Assembly (NCBI GenBank): GCA_036506915.1
Contig: DASXQY010000078.1
Coordinates: 551-64,550, forward strand
Source of the DNA: Gaiellaceae bacterium
GTDB taxonomy: Bacteria > Actinomycetota > Thermoleophilia > Gaiellales > Gaiellaceae
Reading direction: 5' to 3'
DNA: 64,000 bases
Both the position numbers and the translations under genes were made by a program. Of this stretch, positions 9,906 through 18,600 are shown one piece after another (positions within the stretch are counted from its first letter, which is position 1; every line of letters begins with the position of its first letter). The notes beneath the pieces were generated by a model. The model saw only the letters and a list, made by a program, of their open reading frames with translations, was not told the DNA's origin and made no database searches.

Positions 9906-11285
9906 CTACAGCCACTCCGCCGCCCGCTCGGCGACGGCGACGGTCGTCAGGTGCGTGTTCGCGCTCGGGATGGTCGGGATTGCCGACGCGTCGACGACGT
10001 AGAGATTCTCGAACCCGAGCACCCGGCACTGTTCGTCCACGACGCGGCCGATCGCGCACGTCGCCACCGGATGGAAGAACCCGCGCGCGCTCTCCCGCAC
10101 GTGGCTCTCCGCGTCGACGTCCTCGCCCGGCCGCAGCTCGCGGCCGGCGTACAGCCGCACCGCGTCGCTTGCAACGATCTTGCGCAGGAGCTCGAAGCCC
10201 TCGCTCAGCACGTCAACGTCGCGCTCGTCCCGGAGGAAGCCGTGGTCGACCGCGAGCGGCGTCTCCGGATCCCGGGCGTGGAGCCGCACCGATCCGCGTG
10301 AGCGCGGCTTCATCGCGAACGCCGCGGCGCTGGCCTCCAGCGTCTCGTCGAGCGCGGGGAACAGAAGCAGGTCGTTCACGCCCGGCGGGCACGAGCGGCT
10401 ACGGGCCGGGTTGGTTACCTGGCCCATGTAGAGCCCGTGCTCCGCCTGGTGGGCGGCCAACCCCCGCAGCAGCCGGCCGGTCGGCTCCCAGGCCGCGCCG
10501 GTGCCGACGTGGTCGGACAGCCCCTCGCCGACCGGCAGCTCGGCCACGAGCTCGATTCCGTGGCGCCCGAGCTCGTCTGCCGGACCGATCCCGCTCCGCA
10601 GCAGGATCCCCGGCGAGCCGTAGGAGCCGGCCGAGACGACCACGAGATCCGCGCCGAGCTCGTGCCCCCCGGCCAGCGCGCCCACCGCCCGGCCGTCCTC
10701 TGTCAAAACGCGGTCGGCGAGCTTGTTCGCCAGGATCGTCAGGTTCGGCCGGCCGCGCGCCGGGTCGACGTACGCGAACCCCGTGTGCCAGCGGACGTCG
10801 CCGACCACGTTGATCTCGTGGACGATCGCCTCCTCACCACCGGCGGCGCGAAAGGCCCGGTGCCAGGGCGAGAGCTCCGCCTCCGGGATCCGCCGCGCGC
10901 GCAGCGCCCCTCGTGCCCGAGCCAGGTATGGCTTGAGCTTGTCGTACGACCAGCCCGGCCCCCAGTCGTAGTCCGAGGCCGCCCCCTCCAGCAGCACGCA
11001 GGCGTTGTGCGCCGAGCAGCCGCCCAGGATTCTCGCGCGGAGCTGGGAGCGGTCGTTCTCGTCGTCGCGCTCCCAGTAGTGCGAGTCGAGCGCGAGCCAG
11101 CGGGCGTCGAGGATGTCCTCCGGCCAGCGGCCCTCGTCGTAGTGGCCGTAGTCGGGACCGGCTTCGACGAGGCAAACCGAACGATCGGGGTCCTCGCTCA
11201 GTCGGCCGGCGAGCGCGCACCCGGCCGCCCCGCCGCCGAGCACCAGGACGTCGAACGACGGCGTGCGTGCCACTGGACAACTCAA
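9906..11285 (-). CDS. GMC family oxidoreductase
   Basis: FDVLVLGGGAAGCALAGRLSEDP FAD motif and C-terminal VVDASAIPTIPSANTHLT. Start is TTG 11285 or GTG 11273. Confidence 0.9.
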   Translation of the reverse strand: MSCPVARTPSFDVLVLGGGAAGCALAGRLSEDPDRSVCLVEAGPDYGHYDEGRWPEDILDARWLALDSHYWERDDENDRSQLRARILGGCSAHNACVLLEGAASDYDWGPGWSYDKLKPYLARARGALRARRIPEAELSPWHRAFRAAGGEEAIVHEINVVGDVRWHTGFAYVDPARGRPNLTILANKLADRVLTEDGRAVGALAGGHELGADLVVVSAGSYGSPGILLRSGIGPADELGRHGIELVAELPVGEGLSDHVGTGAAWEPTGRLLRGLAAHQAEHGLYMGQVTNPARSRSCPPGVNDLLLFPALDETLEASAAAFAMKPRSRGSVRLHARDPETPLAVDHGFLRDERDVDVLSEGFELLRKIVASDAVRLYAGRELRPGEDVDAESHVRESARGFFHPVATCAIGRVVDEQCRVLGFENLYVVDASAIPTIPSANTHLTTVAVAERAAEWL

Positions 11286-11329
11286 TCACGCCACTTCTCC
11301 GGAGCCAAACGCCGCCGTACACTCGGGAC

Positions 11330-14300
11330 ATGGCGGCTTGTCCCAGGTGTGGGCATGACAACCCGGAACACGCCCGGTTCTGCTCCGCGTGCGCCGCTCC
11401 GCTGCCCCCGGAGGCGCCCGCGTCCCGCGAGCTGCGCAAGACGGTGACCGTCGTCTTCTCCGACGTCGCCAACTCGACCAGGCTCGGCGAGAGCCTCGAC
11501 CCCGAGTCCCACCGGCGCGTGATGAGCCGCTACTTCGAAGCGATGCGGACGGTGCTCGAGCGCCACGGCGGCACGGTCGAGAAGTTCATCGGCGACGCGG
11601 TCATGGCCGTCTTCGGGATCCCGGTCCTGCACGAGGACGACGCCCTGCGAGCGGTCCGGGCGGCCTCGGAGATGCGGACGGCGCTCGCGGAGGTGAACGG
11701 ATCGCTTCGCGGGGAGTGGGACCTCGAGATCTCGGTCCGGACCGGCGTCAACACCGGCGAGGTCGTGGCGGGTCAGCCGGGCGCGCCGACGCTGGTGACC
11801 GGCGACGCCGTTGTCGTGGCGAAACGGCTCGAGGAAACGGCGGCGGCGAACGAGATCCAGCTCGGTGAGAGCACGTACCGGCTCGTCCGCGAGGCAGTGG
11901 TTGCCGAGCCGGTCGAGACCGTCGCAGCCAAGGGGAAGGGCGCGATCACCGCGTGGCGCCTGCTGGAGGTGAGGGACGCCGACGGGAACCACGTGCGGCT
12001 CGACTCGCCGCTGGTGGGGCGCAGCATCGACCTGGCCGCCCTCCAAGAGACGTTAGAGCTGGTCGAGCGGGGAGGCTCGTGCCGCCTCTTCACCGTGCTC
12101 GGCCCGGCCGGGATCGGAAAGACGCGTCTCACGCACGAATTCGTCGGTTGGCTCGGGGAGCGCGCGACGGTGCTTCGGGGCCGCTGCCTGCCGTACGGAG
12201 ACGGCATCACCTTCTGGCCGCTCGTCGAGGTCGTCGGGCAGGCCGCAGGTGTCACCGAGTGGGACACACCGGAGGCTGCGCGGCAAAAGATCGCCGCACT
12301 CCTGCCGAGGACCGAGGACTCGGCGCTCGTCTGCGAGCGGGTGGCGGCGGCCGTGGGCCACGGCGAGGCGGCCGCCGCCCGGCCCGACGAAACGTTCTGG
12401 GCGGTTCGGCGCTTCATCGAGGAGCTCGCCCACGACCGGCCGCTTCTCCTTGTCTTCGATGATCTCCAGTGGGCGGAGAGCACCTTCCTCGATCTGCTCG
12501 AGTACATCTCGGGCTGGACGACGAGGGCGCCGGTGATGCTCTGCTGCCTCGCGCGCGCTGACCTGCTCGAGCTTCGGCCGTCGTGGGGGCTCCCCAAGCC
12601 GAACGCCTCGGCGATCCTGCTCGAGCCCCTCAACGAGGACGAGACGGACGAGCTGATCGGCAATCTGCTGGGCCGGCTGCCACTTCCGAGCTCGGCGCAG
12701 GCACGGATCATCGCGGCGGCCGAGGGCAATCCGCTCTTCGCCGAGGAGCTGCTGCGGATGCTCCGGGACGAGGGCGCGCTGTGCCGGGACAACGGAGGGT
12801 GGAAGGTCACGGCCGACCTCGAGGAGCTCGCCGTGCCGCCCTCGATCCACGCTCTCCTGTCGGCACGCCTCGATCGGCTCGAGCCCGAGGAGCGGGCGGT
12901 CATCCAGCGAGCATCCGTCGTCGGGCAGGTGTTCTGGTGGAGCGCGGTCGCCGACCTCTCGCCCGATTCGGTGCGCGCCGACGTCGGCGCCTCCTTGCAG
13001 TCACTCGTTCGCAAGGAGTTGATCCGCCAGGAGCCGTCCGCCTTCGAAGCCGAGGACGCGTTTCGCTTCGGGCACATGCTGATCCGCGACGCGGCGTACG
13101 CGGCGCTGCCGAAGGAGGCGCGCGCGGACCTCCACGAGCGGATGGCGGGCTGGATCGAGCGGAGGACGAGCGACCGCAGCGCCGAGTACGAGGAGATCCT
13201 CGGGTACCACCTCGAGCAGGCGGTGCGCTACCGGGCCGAGCTCGGCCGCCGTGACGAGCCGACCGACGGGCTCGCCCTCCAAGCAGGGCGGCGGCTCGCG
13301 TCGGCGGGGCGGCGTGCAGCTGCGCTTGGCGATTCCCCTGCGGCGGCGACGCTCTTCGGACGTGCGGCGATCCTGTTGCCGGAGAGCGAACGCGAGCGCC
13401 CGGACGTCCTCGTCGATCTCGCCGAGGCGCTGCACGCGGTGGGTCGGCTCCATGAGGCGCGCGATGTTCTCGAGCAGGTGCTCGACCGTGACGGGGACGC
13501 CGACGCCGGCGTGAGCGCCCGCGCGCGCCTCGAGCTCGCGTTCCTGCGACCCAAGATCGACACCGAGTCGGAGGCGGTCGACGACTTCCAGCGCGCCGGC
13601 GAGCTGACCGCGGCGGTCTTCGAGGAGCTCGGGGACGACAGGCGCTTGACCAGGGCGCTCGTGCGGCTCGCCGACGCGCATTGGATGCACTGCCGGGCCG
13701 CGCAGATGGAGCCGCTGCTCGAGCGGGCGCGAGCGCTGGCCGTCCGTGCCGGCGATACCCGCGAGCTCGCGCAGATCCGCTACGGCCTCGCCCGCGCGGC
13801 CGCCCTCGGGCCGCTTCCGGCGGCTCAGGCCGTCGAGCGCTGTCGCCGGATCCTCCGCGAGTCGGCCGGGGACCGCTTCACGGAAGGCGTGACCGCGAAC
13901 GCGCTCGCCTATCTCGAGGCGATGCGCGGCAACATCGGGGAGGCACGGGAGCTCTCCGCCCGGGGCCGCGCGATTCTCGAGGATCTCGGCCTCGTCATCC
14001 TCGCCGCGGCGCTGGATGCCTGGCGGGGGCAGGTCGAGCTGCTGGCCGGGGACCCGGCGGGTGCGGAGGAGGTCTGGCGCGGCGCGTACGAGCGGCTCGA
14101 GGGGATCGGAGAGCGCGGCAACCTCTCGACGATCGCCGCCTTTCTCGCCGAGGCGCTCCTCGCGCAGGGGGCCGACGACGAGGCGGAGCAGCGCACGGAG
14201 GAGAGCGAGCGCACGGCGTCTCGCGACGACGTCATCTCGCAGGTCGCGTGGCGCGTGACGCGAGCGAAGCTGCTGGCCCGGCGGGGAGAGGTCGAGACGG

Positions 14301-14551
14301 CGGAGCGGCTGGCTCGAGACGCGGTGGCCCGGGCGGACGAGACCGATTGGCCAAGCCTTCGCGGCGCCGCACGCACGAGCCTCGCCGAGGCGTTGCGCGC
14401 CGCCGACCGGACGGACGAGGCGGCGGTGGTCGCGCGCGAGGCGCTGACGATCTACGAGGAGAAGGGCAACGTGATCTCGGCGGCACAGGTCCGCGCGTTG
14501 CTCGAGCGGAAGATCAGCGCCGGCGCTGCTCGAGACGATCGAGCATCGTAG
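11330..14551 (+). CDS. multidomain signalling protein: zinc ribbon + class III adenylate/guanylate cyclase + AAA/STAND ATPase + TPR-like repeats
   Basis: CPRCGHDNPEHARFCSAC; cyclase core VTVVFSDVANST..GDAVMAVFG; Walker A GPAGIGKTRL; long helical C-terminus. ATG 11330 with TACACT 6 nt upstream. Confidence 0.85.
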   Translation: MAACPRCGHDNPEHARFCSACAAPLPPEAPASRELRKTVTVVFSDVANSTRLGESLDPESHRRVMSRYFEAMRTVLERHGGTVEKFIGDAVMAVFGIPVLHEDDALRAVRAASEMRTALAEVNGSLRGEWDLEISVRTGVNTGEVVAGQPGAPTLVTGDAVVVAKRLEETAAANEIQLGESTYRLVREAVVAEPVETVAAKGKGAITAWRLLEVRDADGNHVRLDSPLVGRSIDLAALQETLELVERGGSCRLFTVLGPAGIGKTRLTHEFVGWLGERATVLRGRCLPYGDGITFWPLVEVVGQAAGVTEWDTPEAARQKIAALLPRTEDSALVCERVAAAVGHGEAAAARPDETFWAVRRFIEELAHDRPLLLVFDDLQWAESTFLDLLEYISGWTTRAPVMLCCLARADLLELRPSWGLPKPNASAILLEPLNEDETDELIGNLLGRLPLPSSAQARIIAAAEGNPLFAEELLRMLRDEGALCRDNGGWKVTADLEELAVPPSIHALLSARLDRLEPEERAVIQRASVVGQVFWWSAVADLSPDSVRADVGASLQSLVRKELIRQEPSAFEAEDAFRFGHMLIRDAAYAALPKEARADLHERMAGWIERRTSDRSAEYEEILGYHLEQAVRYRAELGRRDEPTDGLALQAGRRLASAGRRAAALGDSPAAATLFGRAAILLPESERERPDVLVDLAEALHAVGRLHEARDVLEQVLDRDGDADAGVSARARLELAFLRPKIDTESEAVDDFQRAGELTAAVFEELGDDRRLTRALVRLADAHWMHCRAAQMEPLLERARALAVRAGDTRELAQIRYGLARAAALGPLPAAQAVERCRRILRESAGDRFTEGVTANALAYLEAMRGNIGEARELSARGRAILEDLGLVILAAALDAWRGQVELLAGDPAGAEEVWRGAYERLEGIGERGNLSTIAAFLAEALLAQGADDEAEQRTEESERTASRDDVISQVAWRVTRAKLLARRGEVETAERLARDAVARADETDWPSLRGAARTSLAEALRAADRTDEAAVVAREALTIYEEKGNVISAAQVRALLERKISAGAARDDRAS

Positions 14552-15305
14552 GGTCGACCTCGCGCGCGGTCGCGGGCGGCACCACCAGCGTCATGCCGAT
14601 CGTCAGCTCGACCTCGGCCAACCGCTCCAGCGGCGCGCGCTTGACCACGGGGCGGGCGAGGGGATACGGAGAGGCCTGGTAGGCGATCACCTCGTGGGCG
14701 GGCGGGTAAAACCCGGTCAGGTACTCGACCAGCACGGGCAGGTTCGACCAGTCCGGCCGGTCGTGGTGGGCCGTCTGCCCGATCACGCCAATCTGCAGAA
14801 GGACGAGGAGAGCCGCCGCGTCGGGCTCAATGCGCCGCACGACGAGCTCTGTCGCGTGGTGGATCTGGCAGCCGGTCAGCGCCGGGTCGAGACCGAGGTC
14901 GGCGAAAAGGCAGTCGAGCGACGACACACCCGGGAACATCCTGGCGGGGAAGCCCTCGGCCCGCGCGCGCTCGACCGCCACCCTGGCCGGATAGACGTAG
15001 ATGCCGGGGTGGCCGTAGAACGCGGCGCAGACGTCGCGACCCCGCCGCATCGGGGACAGGATCTCGTCGGCCATCCCCTCGTAGGTCTCGAGCCGCTCCT
15101 TGCCGTCTCCGTAGTGCGTATGCAGCGAGCGGGCGCGAGGGTTGAGCCACTGGAGCAGGCGCACCGCGATCGGGTCGGCCACGAGGTAAAACGCGTCGTC
15201 CGCCGCCTCGAAGGAAGCTCGTGCCTGGGGCGTGAGCTGCCCGCCGACGTCGATCCCGGTCCCGACGATCGTGAGCGACCCGGGCGTCGCTCTCGCCGCG
15301 CTCAC
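14514..15305 (-). CDS. stand-alone borosin-type peptide alpha-N-methyltransferase (tetrapyrrole-methylase fold, OphMA/SonM-like)
   Basis: GSLTIVGTGI, FYGHPGIYVYP, PGVSSLDCLFADLGLDP, ..LVVPPA..MLDRLE line up with OphMA methyltransferase-domain motifs from memory. The GTG start overlaps the precursor stop (GTGA). Confidence 0.8.
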   Translation of the reverse strand: MSAARATPGSLTIVGTGIDVGGQLTPQARASFEAADDAFYLVADPIAVRLLQWLNPRARSLHTHYGDGKERLETYEGMADEILSPMRRGRDVCAAFYGHPGIYVYPARVAVERARAEGFPARMFPGVSSLDCLFADLGLDPALTGCQIHHATELVVRRIEPDAAALLVLLQIGVIGQTAHHDRPDWSNLPVLVEYLTGFYPPAHEVIAYQASPYPLARPVVKRAPLERLAEVELTIGMTLVVPPATAREVDPTMLDRLEQRRR

Positions 15306-15526
15306 CCGCTGACGATGATCGGCCAGTTCCCGCAGACGATGATCGCCGTGCCCGCACCGAGCTGTTCCACCACGGTGGCAATCTCGTCGGGATCGCCGCC
15401 CAACATGAGGGCTTGGTCGTCTGCGGAAACGCCCTGATCCCTCATGGTCTTCCTGGGGTTCTTGAGGTGCTTCTTTAAGTTGTCCGGACTCTTTCCCAGC
15501 CAGACCAGGTACTCGCCGAGCGACAT
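15302..15526 (-). CDS. candidate split-borosin precursor peptide (74 aa)
   Basis: MSLGEYLVWLGKSPDNLKKHLKNPRKTMRDQGVSADDQALMLGGDPDEIATVVEQLGAGTAIIVCGNWPIIVSG. AGGAGG lies 5 nt upstream of ATG 15526. The stop is fused to the methyltransferase start. Local GC dip. Confidence 0.7.
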   Translation of the reverse strand: MSLGEYLVWLGKSPDNLKKHLKNPRKTMRDQGVSADDQALMLGGDPDEIATVVEQLGAGTAIIVCGNWPIIVSG

Positions 15527-15659
15527 GTTCCCCTCCTGTTGCATGTGTGACCGTGCCGATCATCACTCCCGGGCGGGATCGGCGCAACCCGGGAATTGCG
15601 ATCAGGGCGTTCGTAACCGAGCCCCGGGGTAGGGGCGGGCCGATGGTAACGTCGGCGCG

Positions 15660-18600
15660 ATGGGCGACCCGCTCGCGCCGTTCAGTCCCGAGACCCGCGC
15701 CTGGTTCGAGCAGGCCTTCGCCGGGCCGACTCCCGCGCAGGCCCTCGGGTGGCCGGCGATCGCGCGCGGCGGGCACACGCTGATCCAGGCGCCGACCGGC
15801 TCGGGCAAGACGCTCGCCGCCTTTCTCTACGGGATCGACAGGCTCAACCCGGAGCCGGGCGAGGGGCTGCGGCTGCTGTACGTCTCGCCGCTGAAGGCGC
15901 TGAACTACGACATCGAGCGCAACCTGCGCGGGCCGCTCGCCGGCCTCCGCTCGGAGCTTCGCGTCGGCGTCCGCACCGGCGACACCTCCCAGAAGGAGCG
16001 CGCCGCGATGCTGCGCGAGCCGCCGGACATCCTGATCACCACTCCCGAGTCGCTCTTCCTCCTTCTTACTTCACGCGCGCGCGAGACGCTGCGGTCGGTG
16101 CGCACCCTCGTGGTCGATGAGGTCCACGCCGTTGCAGGCACGAAGCGTGGGGCCCATCTCGCGCTGTCAGTCGAGCGCCTGCAACGGCTAGTCGACGAAC
16201 CGATCCAGCGGATCGGGCTTTCCGCCACCCAGAGGCCGCTCGAGGAGATCGGGCGCTTCGTCTCGGGGGGTCAGGAGATCGAGCTCGTCGACGCCGGTCG
16301 GGCGAAGGAGCTCGATCTGCGCGTGGTCGTCCCGCTGGAGGACATGCGGGAGCCCGAGGAGCAGCAGTCGATCTGGCCCTCGATCTACCCGGAGGTGCTC
16401 GAGCTGGTCCGGGCGCACCGCTCGACGATCGTCTTCGTCAACAACCGCCGACTCGCGGAGCGGCTCGCGCTCCGCCTCAACGATCTGGCCGAGGAAGAGA
16501 TCGCGCGGGCCCACCACGGGTCGCTTGCGCGCGAGCAGCGGGTCGAGGTCGAGGAGCTGCTCAAGCGCGGCGAGATCCCGTGCCTGGTCGCGACCTCGTC
16601 GCTCGAGCTCGGGATCGACATGGGGGCGGTGGACCTCGTCGTCCAGATCGAGTCGCCCAAGTCGGTCGCGCGCGGGCTCCAGCGGGTCGGCCGCGCCGGG
16701 CACGAGCTCGGCGCCGTCTCGAAGGGGCGGATCTTCCCGAAGTTCCGTGCCGACCTGCTCGAGTCCGCGGTCGTCGCCCGGCGGATGCTCGACGGCGCGA
16801 TCGAGGAGACGAAGATCCCGCGGAACCCGCTGGACGTGCTCGCGCAGCAGATCGTGGCTATCTGCGCCGACGAGGAGATCGCCGTCGACGAGCTGCACCG
16901 GCTCGTGCGCGGCGCGTACCCGTTCGCCGACCTCTCGCGGGTCCAGCTCGAGAACGTGCTCGACATGCTCGACGGGCGGTACCCGTCGGACGAGTTCGCC
17001 GAGCTGCGCGCGCGGGTCGTCTGGGACCGCACCGCCGGCGTCGTGCGCGGCCGGCAGGGGGCGCGCCGGCTGGCGGTCACCAATGCGGGCACGATCCCGG
17101 ACCGCGGTCTCTTCGGCGTTCATCTCGTGGACGGCGGCGGACGCGTCGGGGAGCTCGACGAGGAGATGGTCTACGAGGCGCGCGCGGGACAGACCTTCCT
17201 CCTGGGCGCATCGACGTGGCGAATCGAGGAGATAACGCGCGACCGCGTGCTCGTCTCGCCCGCGCCCGGGGTGCCCGGGGCCGTGCCGTTCTGGAAGGGC
17301 GAGGGGGTCGGCCGGCCGTACGAGCTCGGGGAAGCGATCGGCGCAGCGTCGCGGCAGCTCGTCGCGCTTTCCGATCCGAAAGCGCTAGAGCGGCTCCGTT
17401 CCGAGCACACGCTTGACGAGCGCGCCGCAACGAACCTCCTAGGCTTCCTGCGCGAGCAGGAAGCCGCCACCGGCGCCGTGCCCTCCGACCGCACCGTGGT
17501 GGTCGAGCGCTTCCGGGACGAGATCGGCGACTGGCGGCTCTGCATCCTGACCCCGTTCGGCGGCAGGGTGCACGCGCCGTGGGCCCTGGCGCTGGGGGCC
17601 CGGCTGCGCGAGTCGCTCGGGCTTGAGACGCAGGCGATCTGGTCGGACGACGGAATCGCGATCCACCTGCCGGACGCCGACGCGACGCCGCCGACCGACG
17701 ACGTCCTGCTCGATCCCGGCGAGGTCGAAGACCTCGTCACCCGGGAGCTCGGCGAGACGGCGCTGTTCGGCGCCCGTTTTCGCGAGAACGCAGGTCGAGC
17801 GCTGCTGATCCCGCGCCGCCGTCCGGGCGAGCGCACGCCCCTGTGGCAGCAGCGCCTGAAGGCCCAGTCGCTCCTCCAGGTGGCGCGGCGTTACCCCGCC
17901 TTCCCGGTCGTGCTCGAGACCTACCGAGAGTGCCTCCAGGACGTCTTCGACCTGCCCGCTCTGAAGCGGCTCCTGCAGGGGCTGCGCACGCGCCAGATCG
18001 ACCTCGTCGACGTGGAGACCGCCTCGGCCTCGCCTTATGCGGGTTCGCTGCTCTTCGACTACGTCGCCAACTACATGTACGAGGACGACACGCCGGCGGC
18101 CGAGCGGCGGGCGCAGGCCCTCTCGCTCGACCGCGACCTGCTGCGGGAGCTCCTCGGCCAGGAGGAGCTTCGCGACCTGATCGACCCGGGGGCGCTGGCC
18201 GAGGTCGAAGAGCAGCTCCGGGGGCGGCCGCGGACGCCGGACGAGCTCCACGATCTCCTGCGGAGGCGCGGCGACCTGCGCGCGGACGAGTACGACGGCG
18301 AGCTCGCGGCGCCGCTGCTGGACGAGCGCCGTGCGGTGCCGGTGCGCGTCGCCGGGGAGGAGCGGCTGATCGCGGCGGAGGACGCGGGTCGCTACCGCGA
18401 CGCGCTCGGGGCGATGCCCCCCGGCGGCCTGCCGGAGGCCTTTCTCGAGGCCGACGAGGAGCCGCTCCACTCGCTGGTGCGGCGCTTCGCCCGCTCGCGC
18501 GGCCCCTTCACCACGGCGGAGGCGAGCGAGCGCTTCGGCCGGGAGGTCGAGTCGGTCCTGCGTGAGCTCGAGCGGCGCGACCAGCTCGTTCGCGGCGAGC

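What the first reader, a model, noticed from the sequence alone, without database searches (positions are those of the whole stretch)
15302..15358. Predicted core peptide GAGTAIIVCGNWPIIVSG: duplicated IIV triads, one Cys and one Trp, no follower sequence
Seen: the last 18 codons of the precursor are almost entirely small or beta-branched hydrophobic residues. They contain two IIV triads separated by CGNWP (A-IIV-CGNWP-IIV-SG). The peptide ends at Gly directly at the stop codon that overlaps the enzyme start.

Established: the omphalotin core (WVIVVGVIGVIG) is similarly Val/Ile/Gly-rich, and N-methylation falls on such residues.

Inference: the two IIV blocks are the likely methylation targets. 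The Cys, Pro and terminal Gly could allow further processing such as cyclisation or thiol chemistry, but no enzyme for that is encoded nearby.

The gene also stands out by composition. It has visibly lower GC than its neighbours and uses codons such as TTA (Leu17, 15476-15478), AAG AAG and GAT.
Basis: partly seen in the sequence, partly recalled or inferred. Interest (0 to 1): 0.6.

Follow-up and report, generated by a model that had tools for sequence, protein, structure and literature searches.

The report
Two-repeat core of a split-borosin precursor
The last 14 codons of a 74-residue gene are very probably the core of a ribosomal peptide whose backbone is N-methylated by the enzyme encoded next to it (a "type IV split borosin"), so this is a new soil-actinobacterial member of a known family; its methylation has not been shown chemically.

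Summary
Window 15358-15302 (minus strand) encodes GAGTAIIVCGNWPIIVSG plus the stop, and that TGA overlaps the GTG start of the next gene (GTGA).

- **Next gene:** a SonM/OphMA-type peptide alpha-N-methyltransferase (PDB matches at E about 1e-50). All four key active-site residues are kept.
- **Leader:** residues 1-54 are a borosin binding domain. The family profile hits SonA at E=2.6e-10, AlphaFold2 gives five helices, and the 30 best PDB fold matches are all SonA.
- **Core:** conservation sets it at A61-G74 (14 residues). GAGT belongs to a hypervariable linker.
- **Doubled triad is not chance:** sister lineages keep two co-varying repeats (FIVH-VNWP-FIVH, IVHP-GNP-PIVHP).
- **Low GC:** it comes mostly from amino-acid composition, not foreign origin.
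- **Partner gene, not mentioned in this finding:** a convergent class III cyclase/AAA_16/TPR gene follows the methyltransferase in 25 of 29 Actinomycetota loci and in 0 of 51 loci from other phyla. It is absent together with the cassette from three same-genus genomes.
- **Unexplained:** the 36 core-coding bases carry no synonymous change in nine orthologues.

Which residues are methylated, and whether the peptide is cleaved, remain untested. This scan has reported split borosins with TPR-GGDEF partners, and one doubled core, on other DNA before.

The parts
15582..15587 (-). Promoter -35-like hexamer TTGCGC
   Evidence: TTGCGC or TTGCAC, then 17 nt, then GATGAT, is conserved upstream of all 10 orthologous precursors. 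It is also present in L053 and L054, whose cores differ. Other clades have TTGAC-N17/18-TAnnnT at the same place. The consensus scan did not call it.
15559..15564 (-). Promoter -10-like hexamer GATGAT
   Evidence: It has A at position 2 and T at position 6, and lies 17 nt from the -35-like hexamer.
15532..15537 (-). Shine-Dalgarno AGGAGG, 5 nt before ATG 15526
   Evidence: Read from the sequence. A GGAGG-like purine run is kept before the second ATG in orthologues, while the residues it would encode vary.
15365..15526 (-). Precursor residues 1-54: borosin binding domain (leader)
   Evidence: The profile of 14 precursors hits SonA at E=2.6e-10. AlphaFold2 gives five helices at residues 3-54 with pLDDT 81-92. 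The 30 best Foldseek PDB matches are all SonA chains.
15347..15364 (-). Residues 55-60: hypervariable linker (VEQLGAGT region)
   Evidence: pN 0.23-0.53, equal to or above pS, in all orthologue pairs. See also the alignment.
15305..15346 (-). Residues 61-74: conserved core AIIVCGNWPIIVSG, with two IIV repeats around CGNWP
   Evidence: The core is invariant in 8 homologues of 71-99% identity. Sister clades show co-varying two-repeat cores. The 36 bases 15308-15343 are identical in 9 loci.
15302..15305 (-). GTGA: precursor stop overlapping the methyltransferase start (translational coupling)
   Evidence: The overlap is kept as GTGA or TTGA in relatives.
14514..15305 (-). Borosin alpha-N-methyltransferase (263 aa)
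   Evidence: PDB sequence matches: dbOphMA 1.5e-51, SonM 1.3e-49, OphMA 6e-48. Y65, R71, Y75 and Y97 correspond to SonM Y58, R67, Y71 and Y93 and are invariant in 10 relatives.
11267..14551 (+). Conserved convergent partner: Zn-ribbon, class III cyclase, AAA_16 (STAND) and TPR protein. Its last 38 nt overlap the methyltransferase gene.
   Evidence: Pfam domains. The same position and orientation is seen in 11 of 13 family loci, in all orthologous contigs long enough to show it and in 25 of 29 Actinomycetota loci. It is absent together with the cassette from three same-genus genomes.

Best explanation
What it is: the stretch is the C-terminal core of a type IV ('split') borosin precursor.

Proposed mechanism, in order:
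1. Transcription and translation. The 74-residue peptide is made from its own promoter with a strong ribosome-binding site. The methyltransferase is translated by re-initiation at the GTGA overlap, which may keep production of enzyme and substrate linked (the ratio is inferred, not tested).
2. Docking. The five-helix leader (residues 1-54) docks on the dimeric SonM/OphMA-type S-adenosylmethionine enzyme. A flexible, fast-evolving linker (55-60) feeds the hydrophobic tail AIIVCGNWPIIVSG into the active site.
3. Methylation. Backbone amide nitrogens are methylated one after another from the N- to the C-terminal side. The tail is built from two short repeats (hydrophobic-Ile-Val plus a polar residue) separated by a turn-like G-N-W-P. 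Each repeat is probably one methylation unit, with the first triad being the better-supported site.
4. Release. A protease encoded elsewhere would then release a short linear N-methylated peptide.

Basis of each step:
- Shown here: homology and fold of both proteins, conservation of the active-site residues, gene coupling, purifying selection, and conservation with co-variation of the two repeats.
- Inferred: that methylation occurs at all, which residues carry it, and that the peptide is cleaved.
For: Enzyme:
- TP_methylase domain.
- PDB sequence matches to dbOphMA (1.5e-51), SonM (1.3e-49) and OphMA (6e-48) over the full length.
- Gap-free alignment to OphMA residues 9-122 places Y65, R71, Y75 and Y97 at the positions of SonM Y58, R67, Y71 and Y93. 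All four are invariant in 10 relatives.

Leader:
- Weak direct hit to SonA (E=0.12, collinear).
- The profile of 14 family precursors hits all SonA entries at 2.6e-10 to 5e-10.
- AlphaFold2 gives five helices.
- Foldseek ranks 1-30 are SonA chains, with TM 0.65-0.81 to the target and rmsd 1.5-2.8 A.

Translation and selection:
- AGGAGG lies 5 nt before the ATG.
- Leader pN/pS is well below 1.
- Conserved promoter-like element upstream.

Linkage:
- The small ORF overlaps or abuts the methyltransferase start in all orthologous contigs.
- BBD-bearing ORFs sit upstream of the enzyme in most of 80 loci across phyla.

Core:
- AIIVCGNWPIIVSG is invariant at 71-99% overall identity.
- Relatives read A-FIV-YTGNWP-IV-HW, A-FIVH-VNWP-FIVH-D and L-YIVHP-GNP-PIVHP. 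The repeat halves differ by synonymous changes, so selection acts at the peptide level.

Literature:
- SonA is methylated at L63 and I65 directly after its binding domain. The product is a 16-residue linear peptide, and no protease is encoded in that cluster (PMC10549244).
- SonA variants with duplicated cores acquire three or four methyl groups (PMC11751858).
- Borosin cores often contain repeating motifs (bioRxiv 10.1101/2024.01.09.574750).
Against: - There is no chemical evidence. Methylation, its sites and cleavage are all inferred.
- The core is modelled only at low confidence (pLDDT about 50).
- The direct sequence match of the precursor to SonA is weak on its own (E=0.12).
- No protease or exporter lies in or near the module.
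- In two related contigs (L026, L027) a GGG deletion removes Gly74 and the GTG start of the enzyme. The coupling is therefore not absolutely fixed.
- The rules for which residues borosin enzymes methylate are described as still enigmatic.
Confidence: 0.85

Rival explanations
1. The peptide (free or still attached to its leader) is not an exported natural product. It is an intracellular ligand or partner of the adjacent cytoplasmic cyclase/STAND/TPR protein. N-methylation of the tail would then control recognition by the TPR sensor, and so nucleotide-dependent assembly and second-messenger output.
For: - The cyclase/AAA_16/TPR gene sits convergent to the methyltransferase, usually overlapping its 3' end. 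This holds in 11 of 13 family loci, in all orthologous contigs and in 25 of 29 Actinomycetota loci, against 0 of 51 loci from other phyla.
- The genome has about 20 paralogues of this protein. The closest one is the copy beside the genome's second borosin cassette.
- Only the borosin-linked copies, plus two or three other paralogues, share an alignable C-terminal TPR region.
- The cyclase and methyltransferase trees share their well-supported clades.
- All three genes are missing together between GMC oxidoreductase and lhr in three same-genus genomes.
- No protease or exporter lies in the module.
- Borosin clusters of Gammaproteobacteria carry TPR-GGDEF cyclases, some fused to the enzyme.
Against: - The evidence is gene neighbourhood only. 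The genes are convergent, so they are not co-transcribed.
- The family is highly expanded, and at least one paralogue with the same C-terminal region (contig C38) has no cassette beside it.
- In the window's clade the catalytic Asn of the cyclase motif GDxVNxA is Val, so cyclase output may be weak.
- No binding has been shown for any borosin-cyclase pair.
Confidence: 0.2
2. Only the first IIV triad (residues 62-64) is methylated, as in SonA. The second repeat and G-N-W-P serve for positioning in the active site, for product conformation or for target binding.
For: - The collinear alignment to SonA puts A61-I62-I63-V64 opposite the methylated L63-V64-I65 stretch.
- In engineered SonA variants with closely spaced duplicated motifs, the predicted sites were often not methylated.
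- AlphaFold2 pairs the two repeats as a hairpin, at low confidence.
Against: - Both repeats are conserved and co-vary equally.
- Longer duplications of the SonA core were methylated in both copies.
- Omphalotin-type enzymes methylate many residues.
Confidence: 0.3
3. The small ORF is not a functional gene. It is either a chance frame or a decayed precursor.
For: It has no Pfam or NCBIfam hit of its own, and its GC content is low.
Against: - Strong Shine-Dalgarno site.
- Purifying selection on the leader.
- Conserved in at least 9 metagenomic homologues, always next to the enzyme.
- Significant profile match and fold match to SonA.
- 1,615 representative clusters of the same family exist in public data.
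Confidence: 0.02

Closest known systems
SonA/SonM, the type IV split borosin of Shewanella oneidensis MR-1 (product shewanellamide A; PDB 7LTC, 7LTE and others)
   Same: - Discrete enzyme of about 260 residues with the same key residues.
- Separate precursor of about 70 residues, with an N-terminal five-helix borosin binding domain and a short hydrophobic C-terminal core.
- No protease in the cluster.
- A nucleotide-cyclase gene with TPR repeats next door.
   Different: - About 20-25% identity between the leaders, and the enzymes match at E about 1e-49, so the relationship is distant.
- The host is an uncultured Gaiellaceae-type actinobacterium, not a gammaproteobacterium.
- The core has two co-varying repeats around G-N-W-P and ends two residues after the second repeat. 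SonA has one methylated stretch followed by SHGNGD.
- The partner is a cytoplasmic class III cyclase/STAND/TPR protein in convergent orientation, not a membrane GGDEF protein.
- The precursor stop overlaps the enzyme start.
OphMA/omphalotin and dbOphMA (type I fused fungal borosins)
   Same: - Best sequence matches for the enzyme. P0002 residues 9-122 align to OphMA without gaps.
- The core is rich in Val, Ile and Gly and contains a Trp.
   Different: - In fungi the enzyme, binding domain and core form one polypeptide, and the product is macrocyclised by a prolyl oligopeptidase.
- Here enzyme and substrate are separate genes, and no macrocyclase is present.
Type V split borosins (RceA/RceM) and engineered SonA variants with duplicated cores
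   Same: Repeated short core units, each taken to be one methylation unit.
   Different: - RceA has ten 11-residue repeats, and its binding domain sits on the enzyme.
- Here there are two 3-4-residue repeats, and the binding domain sits on the precursor.
Type X borosin enzymes (TPR, transmembrane segment, GGDEF and methyltransferase fused) and the son-cluster GGDEF protein SO1480
   Same: A borosin methyltransferase is associated with a TPR-bearing nucleotide cyclase.
   Different: - Different cyclase superfamily: class III adenylate/guanylate cyclase, against GGDEF.
- An added STAND ATPase module.
- No membrane segment detected by Pfam.
- A separate, convergent gene rather than a fusion or an operon member.

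Membership tests
Type IV split borosin (SonA/SonM type) | Stand-alone alpha-N-methyltransferase homologous to the OphMA/SonM branch of the tetrapyrrole-methylase fold | tested here: met
   Pfam TP_methylase at 3.7e-16. Full-length PDB matches at 1e-47 to 1e-51 to dbOphMA, SonM and OphMA.
Type IV split borosin (SonA/SonM type) | Active-site Tyr/Arg/Tyr/Tyr set (SonM Y58, R67, Y71, Y93) | tested here: met
   Y65, R71, Y75 and Y97. These were placed by gap-free alignment to OphMA and by coordinate arithmetic to SonM. All are invariant in 10 relatives. The SonM alignment itself was not printed.
Type IV split borosin (SonA/SonM type) | Separate precursor with an N-terminal five-helix borosin binding domain | tested here: met
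   The family profile hits SonA at E=2.6e-10. AlphaFold2 gives five helices at residues 3-54. Foldseek ranks 1-30 are SonA chains.
Type IV split borosin (SonA/SonM type) | Short core at the C-terminus of the precursor, encoded beside the enzyme | tested here: met
   The 14-residue conserved hydrophobic tail ends at the GTGA overlap.
Type IV split borosin (SonA/SonM type) | Backbone alpha-N-methylation of core residues by the cognate enzyme | not testable with these tools
   This needs co-expression and LC-MS/MS.
Type IV split borosin (SonA/SonM type) | Proteolytic release of a mature peptide | not testable with these tools
   No protease gene lies in or next to the module. The same is true of the son cluster.
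Type I-III fused borosins (omphalotin type) | Enzyme, binding domain and core in one polypeptide | tested here: not met
   There are two separate frames. The enzyme ends at residue 263 with no C-terminal extension.

The most novel reading that the evidence does not exclude
In Gaiellales-type actinobacteria the borosin cassette and the adjacent cytoplasmic cyclase/STAND/TPR gene form a self-contained, three-gene intracellular peptide-signalling module. The N-methylated two-repeat tail would be the ligand of the TPR sensor and would switch STAND assembly and nucleotide-cyclase output. This would give a function to the repeatedly observed but unexplained pairing of borosins with TPR-bearing cyclases, reached here with a different cyclase class from the GGDEF proteins of Gammaproteobacteria.
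Probability: 0.15. Interest if true: 0.75.

Novelty: new member of a known kind. Interest (0 to 1): 0.42.

Why it matters
Backbone N-methylated peptides interest drug designers because they resist proteases and cross membranes. Few borosin products are known, and in the literature read here only one comes from bacteria.

- **A compact test case.** This locus adds a clade from uncultured soil Gaiellaceae. Its 14-residue core is naturally built from two co-varying repeats, which makes it a small system for asking how a discrete methyltransferase chooses its sites and iterates.
- **A broader pairing.** The strict, lineage-wide pairing with a class III cyclase/STAND/TPR gene parallels the published but unexplained pairing of proteobacterial borosins with TPR-GGDEF cyclases. 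That parallel makes the idea that the borosin peptide is a signal for a TPR-cyclase more general.
- **Easier to test.** Because this partner is soluble rather than membrane-bound, the idea could be tested in vitro with purified protein.

Tried and rejected
- **RNA structure at the precursor/enzyme junction** as the cause of the nucleotide-level conservation: the fold is no better than shuffles (z=+0.41).
- **Long-range pairing of the core-coding CCGATCATC with the upstream GATGATCGG:** rejected. The upstream element is kept in L018, L053 and L054, whose cores lack the complement. It also sits where other clades have a TTGAC-N17-TAnnnT promoter.
- **Gene conversion between the two repeat halves:** rejected. 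The halves differ by synonymous changes in L053 and L054.
- **Codon preference as the cause of the silent-site conservation:** insufficient. GGG and AGC are not the preferred codons, yet they are invariant.
- **Foreign origin of the low-GC gene:** rejected. The enzyme has genome-typical GC, the deficit is at codon positions 1 and 2, and orthologues share it.
- **TTA as a regulatory rare codon:** rejected, because it is not conserved.
- **The 80-residue start at ATG 15544:** unlikely, since the ribosome-binding site precedes the second ATG.
- **Direct family searches of the precursor:** Pfam and NCBIfam gave nothing useful.
- **Consensus promoter scan:** found nothing.
- **Unannotated genes upstream of the precursor in some orthologous contigs:** no Pfam match.
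- **Literature:** searches for borosin together with adenylate cyclase, and with guanylate cyclase, Gaiella or Thermoleophilia, found no paper linking them.
- **One PDB search** was wasted on a threshold that excluded SonM.

Full report
**1. Observation**

On the minus strand, codons 15358..15305 read GAGTAIIVCGNWPIIVSG, followed by TGA at 15304-15302. The ORF most likely starts at ATG 15526 and encodes 74 residues. AGGAGG lies 5 nt upstream of that ATG. The alternative ATG at 15544 has no ribosome-binding site in most orthologues. The stop shares TG with GTG 15305-15303, which opens a 263-codon frame ending at 14514.

The composition claim holds. GC is 0.609, against 0.708 for the next gene and 0.72-0.73 for the other neighbours. 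The deficit lies mainly at codon positions 1 and 2, and GC3 is still 0.84. Orthologues share the low GC. The rare TTA at codon 17 is CTG or TTG in orthologues. The low GC therefore reflects the Lys/Asn/Asp/Met/Ile content of a small helical domain, not a foreign gene.

**2. The enzyme**

The 263-residue protein has a TP_methylase domain. It matches over its full length the solved peptide alpha-N-methyltransferases: dbOphMA (1.5e-51), SonM (1.3e-49) and OphMA (6e-48).

Its residues 9-122 align to OphMA 9-122 without gaps. SonM carries three extra residues in that range. This places Y65, R71, Y75 and Y97 at the positions of SonM Y58, R67, Y71 and Y93, whose mutation lowers or abolishes activity (PMC8429565). 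All four are invariant in ten relatives.

**3. The leader**

Alone, the 74-residue protein hits SonA only weakly, though collinearly (E=0.12). A profile of 14 precursors collected here hits every SonA entry of the PDB at 2.6e-10 to 5e-10.

AlphaFold2 with that alignment gives five helices at residues 3-54 (pLDDT 81-92) and a low-confidence C-terminal hairpin. Foldseek ranks 1-30 against the PDB are all SonA chains, with TM to target 0.65-0.81 and rmsd 1.5-2.8 A. Residues 1-54 are therefore a borosin binding domain, the docking module of type IV split borosins.

**4. Conservation and the core boundary**

Nine homologues exist in metagenomes. In every contig long enough to show it, the small ORF ends 4 nt inside a TP_methylase gene.

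Selection differs by region:
- The leader is under purifying selection. For example, pN is 0.009 against pS 0.30, and pN 0.077 against pS 0.37.
- The six to eight residues before the core are hypervariable, with pN 0.23-0.53, equal to or above pS.
- (V/T)A-IIVCGNWPIIVSG is invariant in eight homologues of 71-99% overall identity.

The conserved core is therefore A61-G74. The true N-terminal cleavage site cannot be predicted: shewanellamide A includes seven residues ahead of its first methylated residue.

**5. The doubled triad is a selected design**

More distant members of the same clade read as follows:
- A-FIV-YTGNWP-IV-HW (P0011/L018)
- A-FIVH-VNWP-FIVH-D (L053, enzyme 69% identical)
- L-YIVHP-GNP-PIVHP (L054, enzyme 71% identical)
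- AFIVYPHNWPIVHW and ALIVYFPNWPIVHW (P0013, P0021)

Both halves change together. In L053 and L054 the halves differ by synonymous substitutions, so the repeat is maintained at the peptide level and not by gene conversion. The Cys of the window's core is Tyr or His elsewhere, which argues against essential thiol chemistry.

Across the wider family (1,615 representative clusters at E<=0.001), many cores carry two or three short hydrophobic repeats. This agrees with the published remark that borosin cores often repeat.

**6. Which residues are methylated**

This cannot be computed. Two points favour the triads:
- The collinear alignment puts A61-V64 opposite the SonA stretch that holds the methylated L63 and I65.
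- SonA variants with duplicated cores acquire three or four methyl groups (PMC11751858).

Against certainty, closely spaced duplications were processed poorly and sometimes at unexpected residues. The rules are called enigmatic by those who study them. I put about 0.55 on both triads carrying methyl groups, and about 0.3 on the first triad only.

**7. Genomic context**

Inside the window the two genes lie between lhr (15660-19910, divergent) and a convergent gene at 11267-14551. That gene encodes a Zn-ribbon, a class III cyclase domain, AAA_16 and TPR repeats. Its last 38 nt overlap the enzyme gene.

This third gene is not a casual neighbour:
- It occupies the same convergent position in 11 of 13 loci found in the class and in all orthologous contigs long enough to show it. 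The same 38-nt overlap appears in the window and in every orthologous contig where both gene ends were called.
- It does so in 25 of 29 Actinomycetota-labelled loci of a wider survey, and in none of 51 loci from other phyla.
- The genome holds about 20 paralogues. The closest is the one beside a second borosin cassette on contig C176.
- Most paralogues have no alignable C-terminal TPR region.
- The cyclase and methyltransferase trees share their supported clades.
- Three genomes of the same genus have GMC oxidoreductase and lhr close together, with other genes between them and none of the three module genes.

The unit that is gained and lost is therefore precursor, enzyme and cyclase together.

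lhr also flanks the cassette in other genera (L011, L013, L014, L017), at 76-81% identity. The enzyme there is only about 50% identical and the cores are unrelated. The cassette thus evolves far faster than its surroundings.

No protease, exporter or further tailoring enzyme is present.

**8. Mechanism proposed**

- A conserved promoter-like element (TTGCGC-N17-GATGAT at 15587-15559) and a strong ribosome-binding site drive the precursor.
- The enzyme is made by re-initiation at GTGA. This overlap is kept as GTGA or TTGA across the clade.
- The binding domain docks, the flexible linker delivers the tail, and backbone amides of the two repeats are methylated from the N- to the C-terminal side.
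- A protease encoded elsewhere releases a short linear peptide.

Shown here: homology, fold, active-site residues, coupling and selection. Inferred: methylation, its sites and cleavage.

**9. Unexplained**

The 36 bases encoding I62-S73 (15343-15308) are identical in nine orthologous loci. By comparison:
- 16 of 30 leader codons and 78 of 140 enzyme codons with an invariant amino acid carry synonymous variation. A background calculated per amino acid gives P of about 1.5e-4 for none among the 11 degenerate core codons.
- No window of 11 such codons in the enzyme is silent (0 of 167). The longest silent run there is 7.

RNA folding, pairing with the upstream element, gene conversion and codon preference do not explain it.

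**10. Comparison, novelty and limits**

All testable defining features of a type IV split borosin are met. The chemistry is untested.

The differences from SonA/SonM are the host lineage, the two-repeat core around G-N-W-P with almost no C-terminal tail, the stop-start overlap, and the partner gene. That partner is a cytoplasmic class III cyclase/STAND/TPR protein rather than a membrane TPR-GGDEF protein.

The pairing of borosins with TPR-GGDEF cyclases is published. It has also been noted repeatedly by this scan on other DNA, together with one doubled core. No paper in the library links borosins with class III cyclases or with Gaiellales.

I class the finding as a new member of a known kind.

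Noticed in passing
window 15308-15343 (minus strand): The 36 core-coding bases are identical in nine orthologous loci, although more than half of the codons with an invariant amino acid elsewhere in the operon carry synonymous changes. No window of 11 such codons in the enzyme gene is silent (0 of 167). No explanation was found.
   Followed up: partly
window 11267-14551 (+), and L001, L003, L007-L014, L053-L132: A Zn-ribbon/class III cyclase/AAA_16/TPR gene lies convergent to the borosin methyltransferase in 25 of 29 Actinomycetota loci and in 0 of 51 loci from other phyla. In the window's clade its last 38 nt overlap the enzyme gene.
   Followed up: yes
window 11267-14551 (+), cyclase motif LVTGDAVVVAKRLEE: The metal-binding Asp residues, the Lys and the Arg of the class III cyclase domain are kept. 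The Asn of GDxVNxA is Val in the window, L023, L053 and L054, and Val, Ile or Thr in several other borosin-linked copies. It is Asn in the genome's second borosin-linked copy. Cyclase activity may therefore be reduced or altered.
   Followed up: partly
G000 contig C176 (L005 1333-2565; L003): The same genome holds a second split-borosin module. It has a precursor ending EIFLGQAPHFALMGQAPHVAPPDDGD (again two repeats, GQAPH), a methyltransferase 50% identical to the window's, and its own convergent cyclase/AAA_16/TPR gene (49% identical, the closest paralogue).
   Followed up: partly
L050, L051, L052 (same-genus genomes G317, G262, G272): Between GMC oxidoreductase and lhr these genomes carry other genes, namely a conserved protein of 171-186 residues, a P-loop kinase-like protein and, in G262, a beta-lactamase-like protein. 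They have no precursor, methyltransferase or cyclase there. The interval is a variable island.
   Followed up: partly
L026 2589-2951 and L027 887-1267: Two independent contigs (JGI and ENA) share a GGG deletion. The peptide then ends ...IIVS, and the GTG start of the methyltransferase becomes CTG. Gene callers place the enzyme start 120-140 nt downstream.
   Followed up: no
L018 2116-3932 and L019 1-1775: In the lineage with the AFIVYTGNWPIVHW core, an ECF-type sigma-70 gene and an unannotated 433-residue gene lie divergent from the precursor, between it and lhr.
   Followed up: no
L079, L091, L099, L119; L080, L096, L117, L122: The wider survey shows other borosin architectures. Some have the binding domain fused to the N-terminus of the methyltransferase. 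Others are long precursors of 250-400 residues with many repeats, such as NPAALIWAQ, HPQVV or QVIYAAGAP.
   Followed up: no
window 15559-15587 (minus strand), and upstream of precursors in L001, L005, L007, L056, L064, L068, L081, L116: Every precursor gene examined has its own promoter-like element. It is TTGAC-N17/18-TAnnnT in most clades and TTGCGC/TTGCAC-N17-GATGAT in the window's clade.
   Followed up: partly
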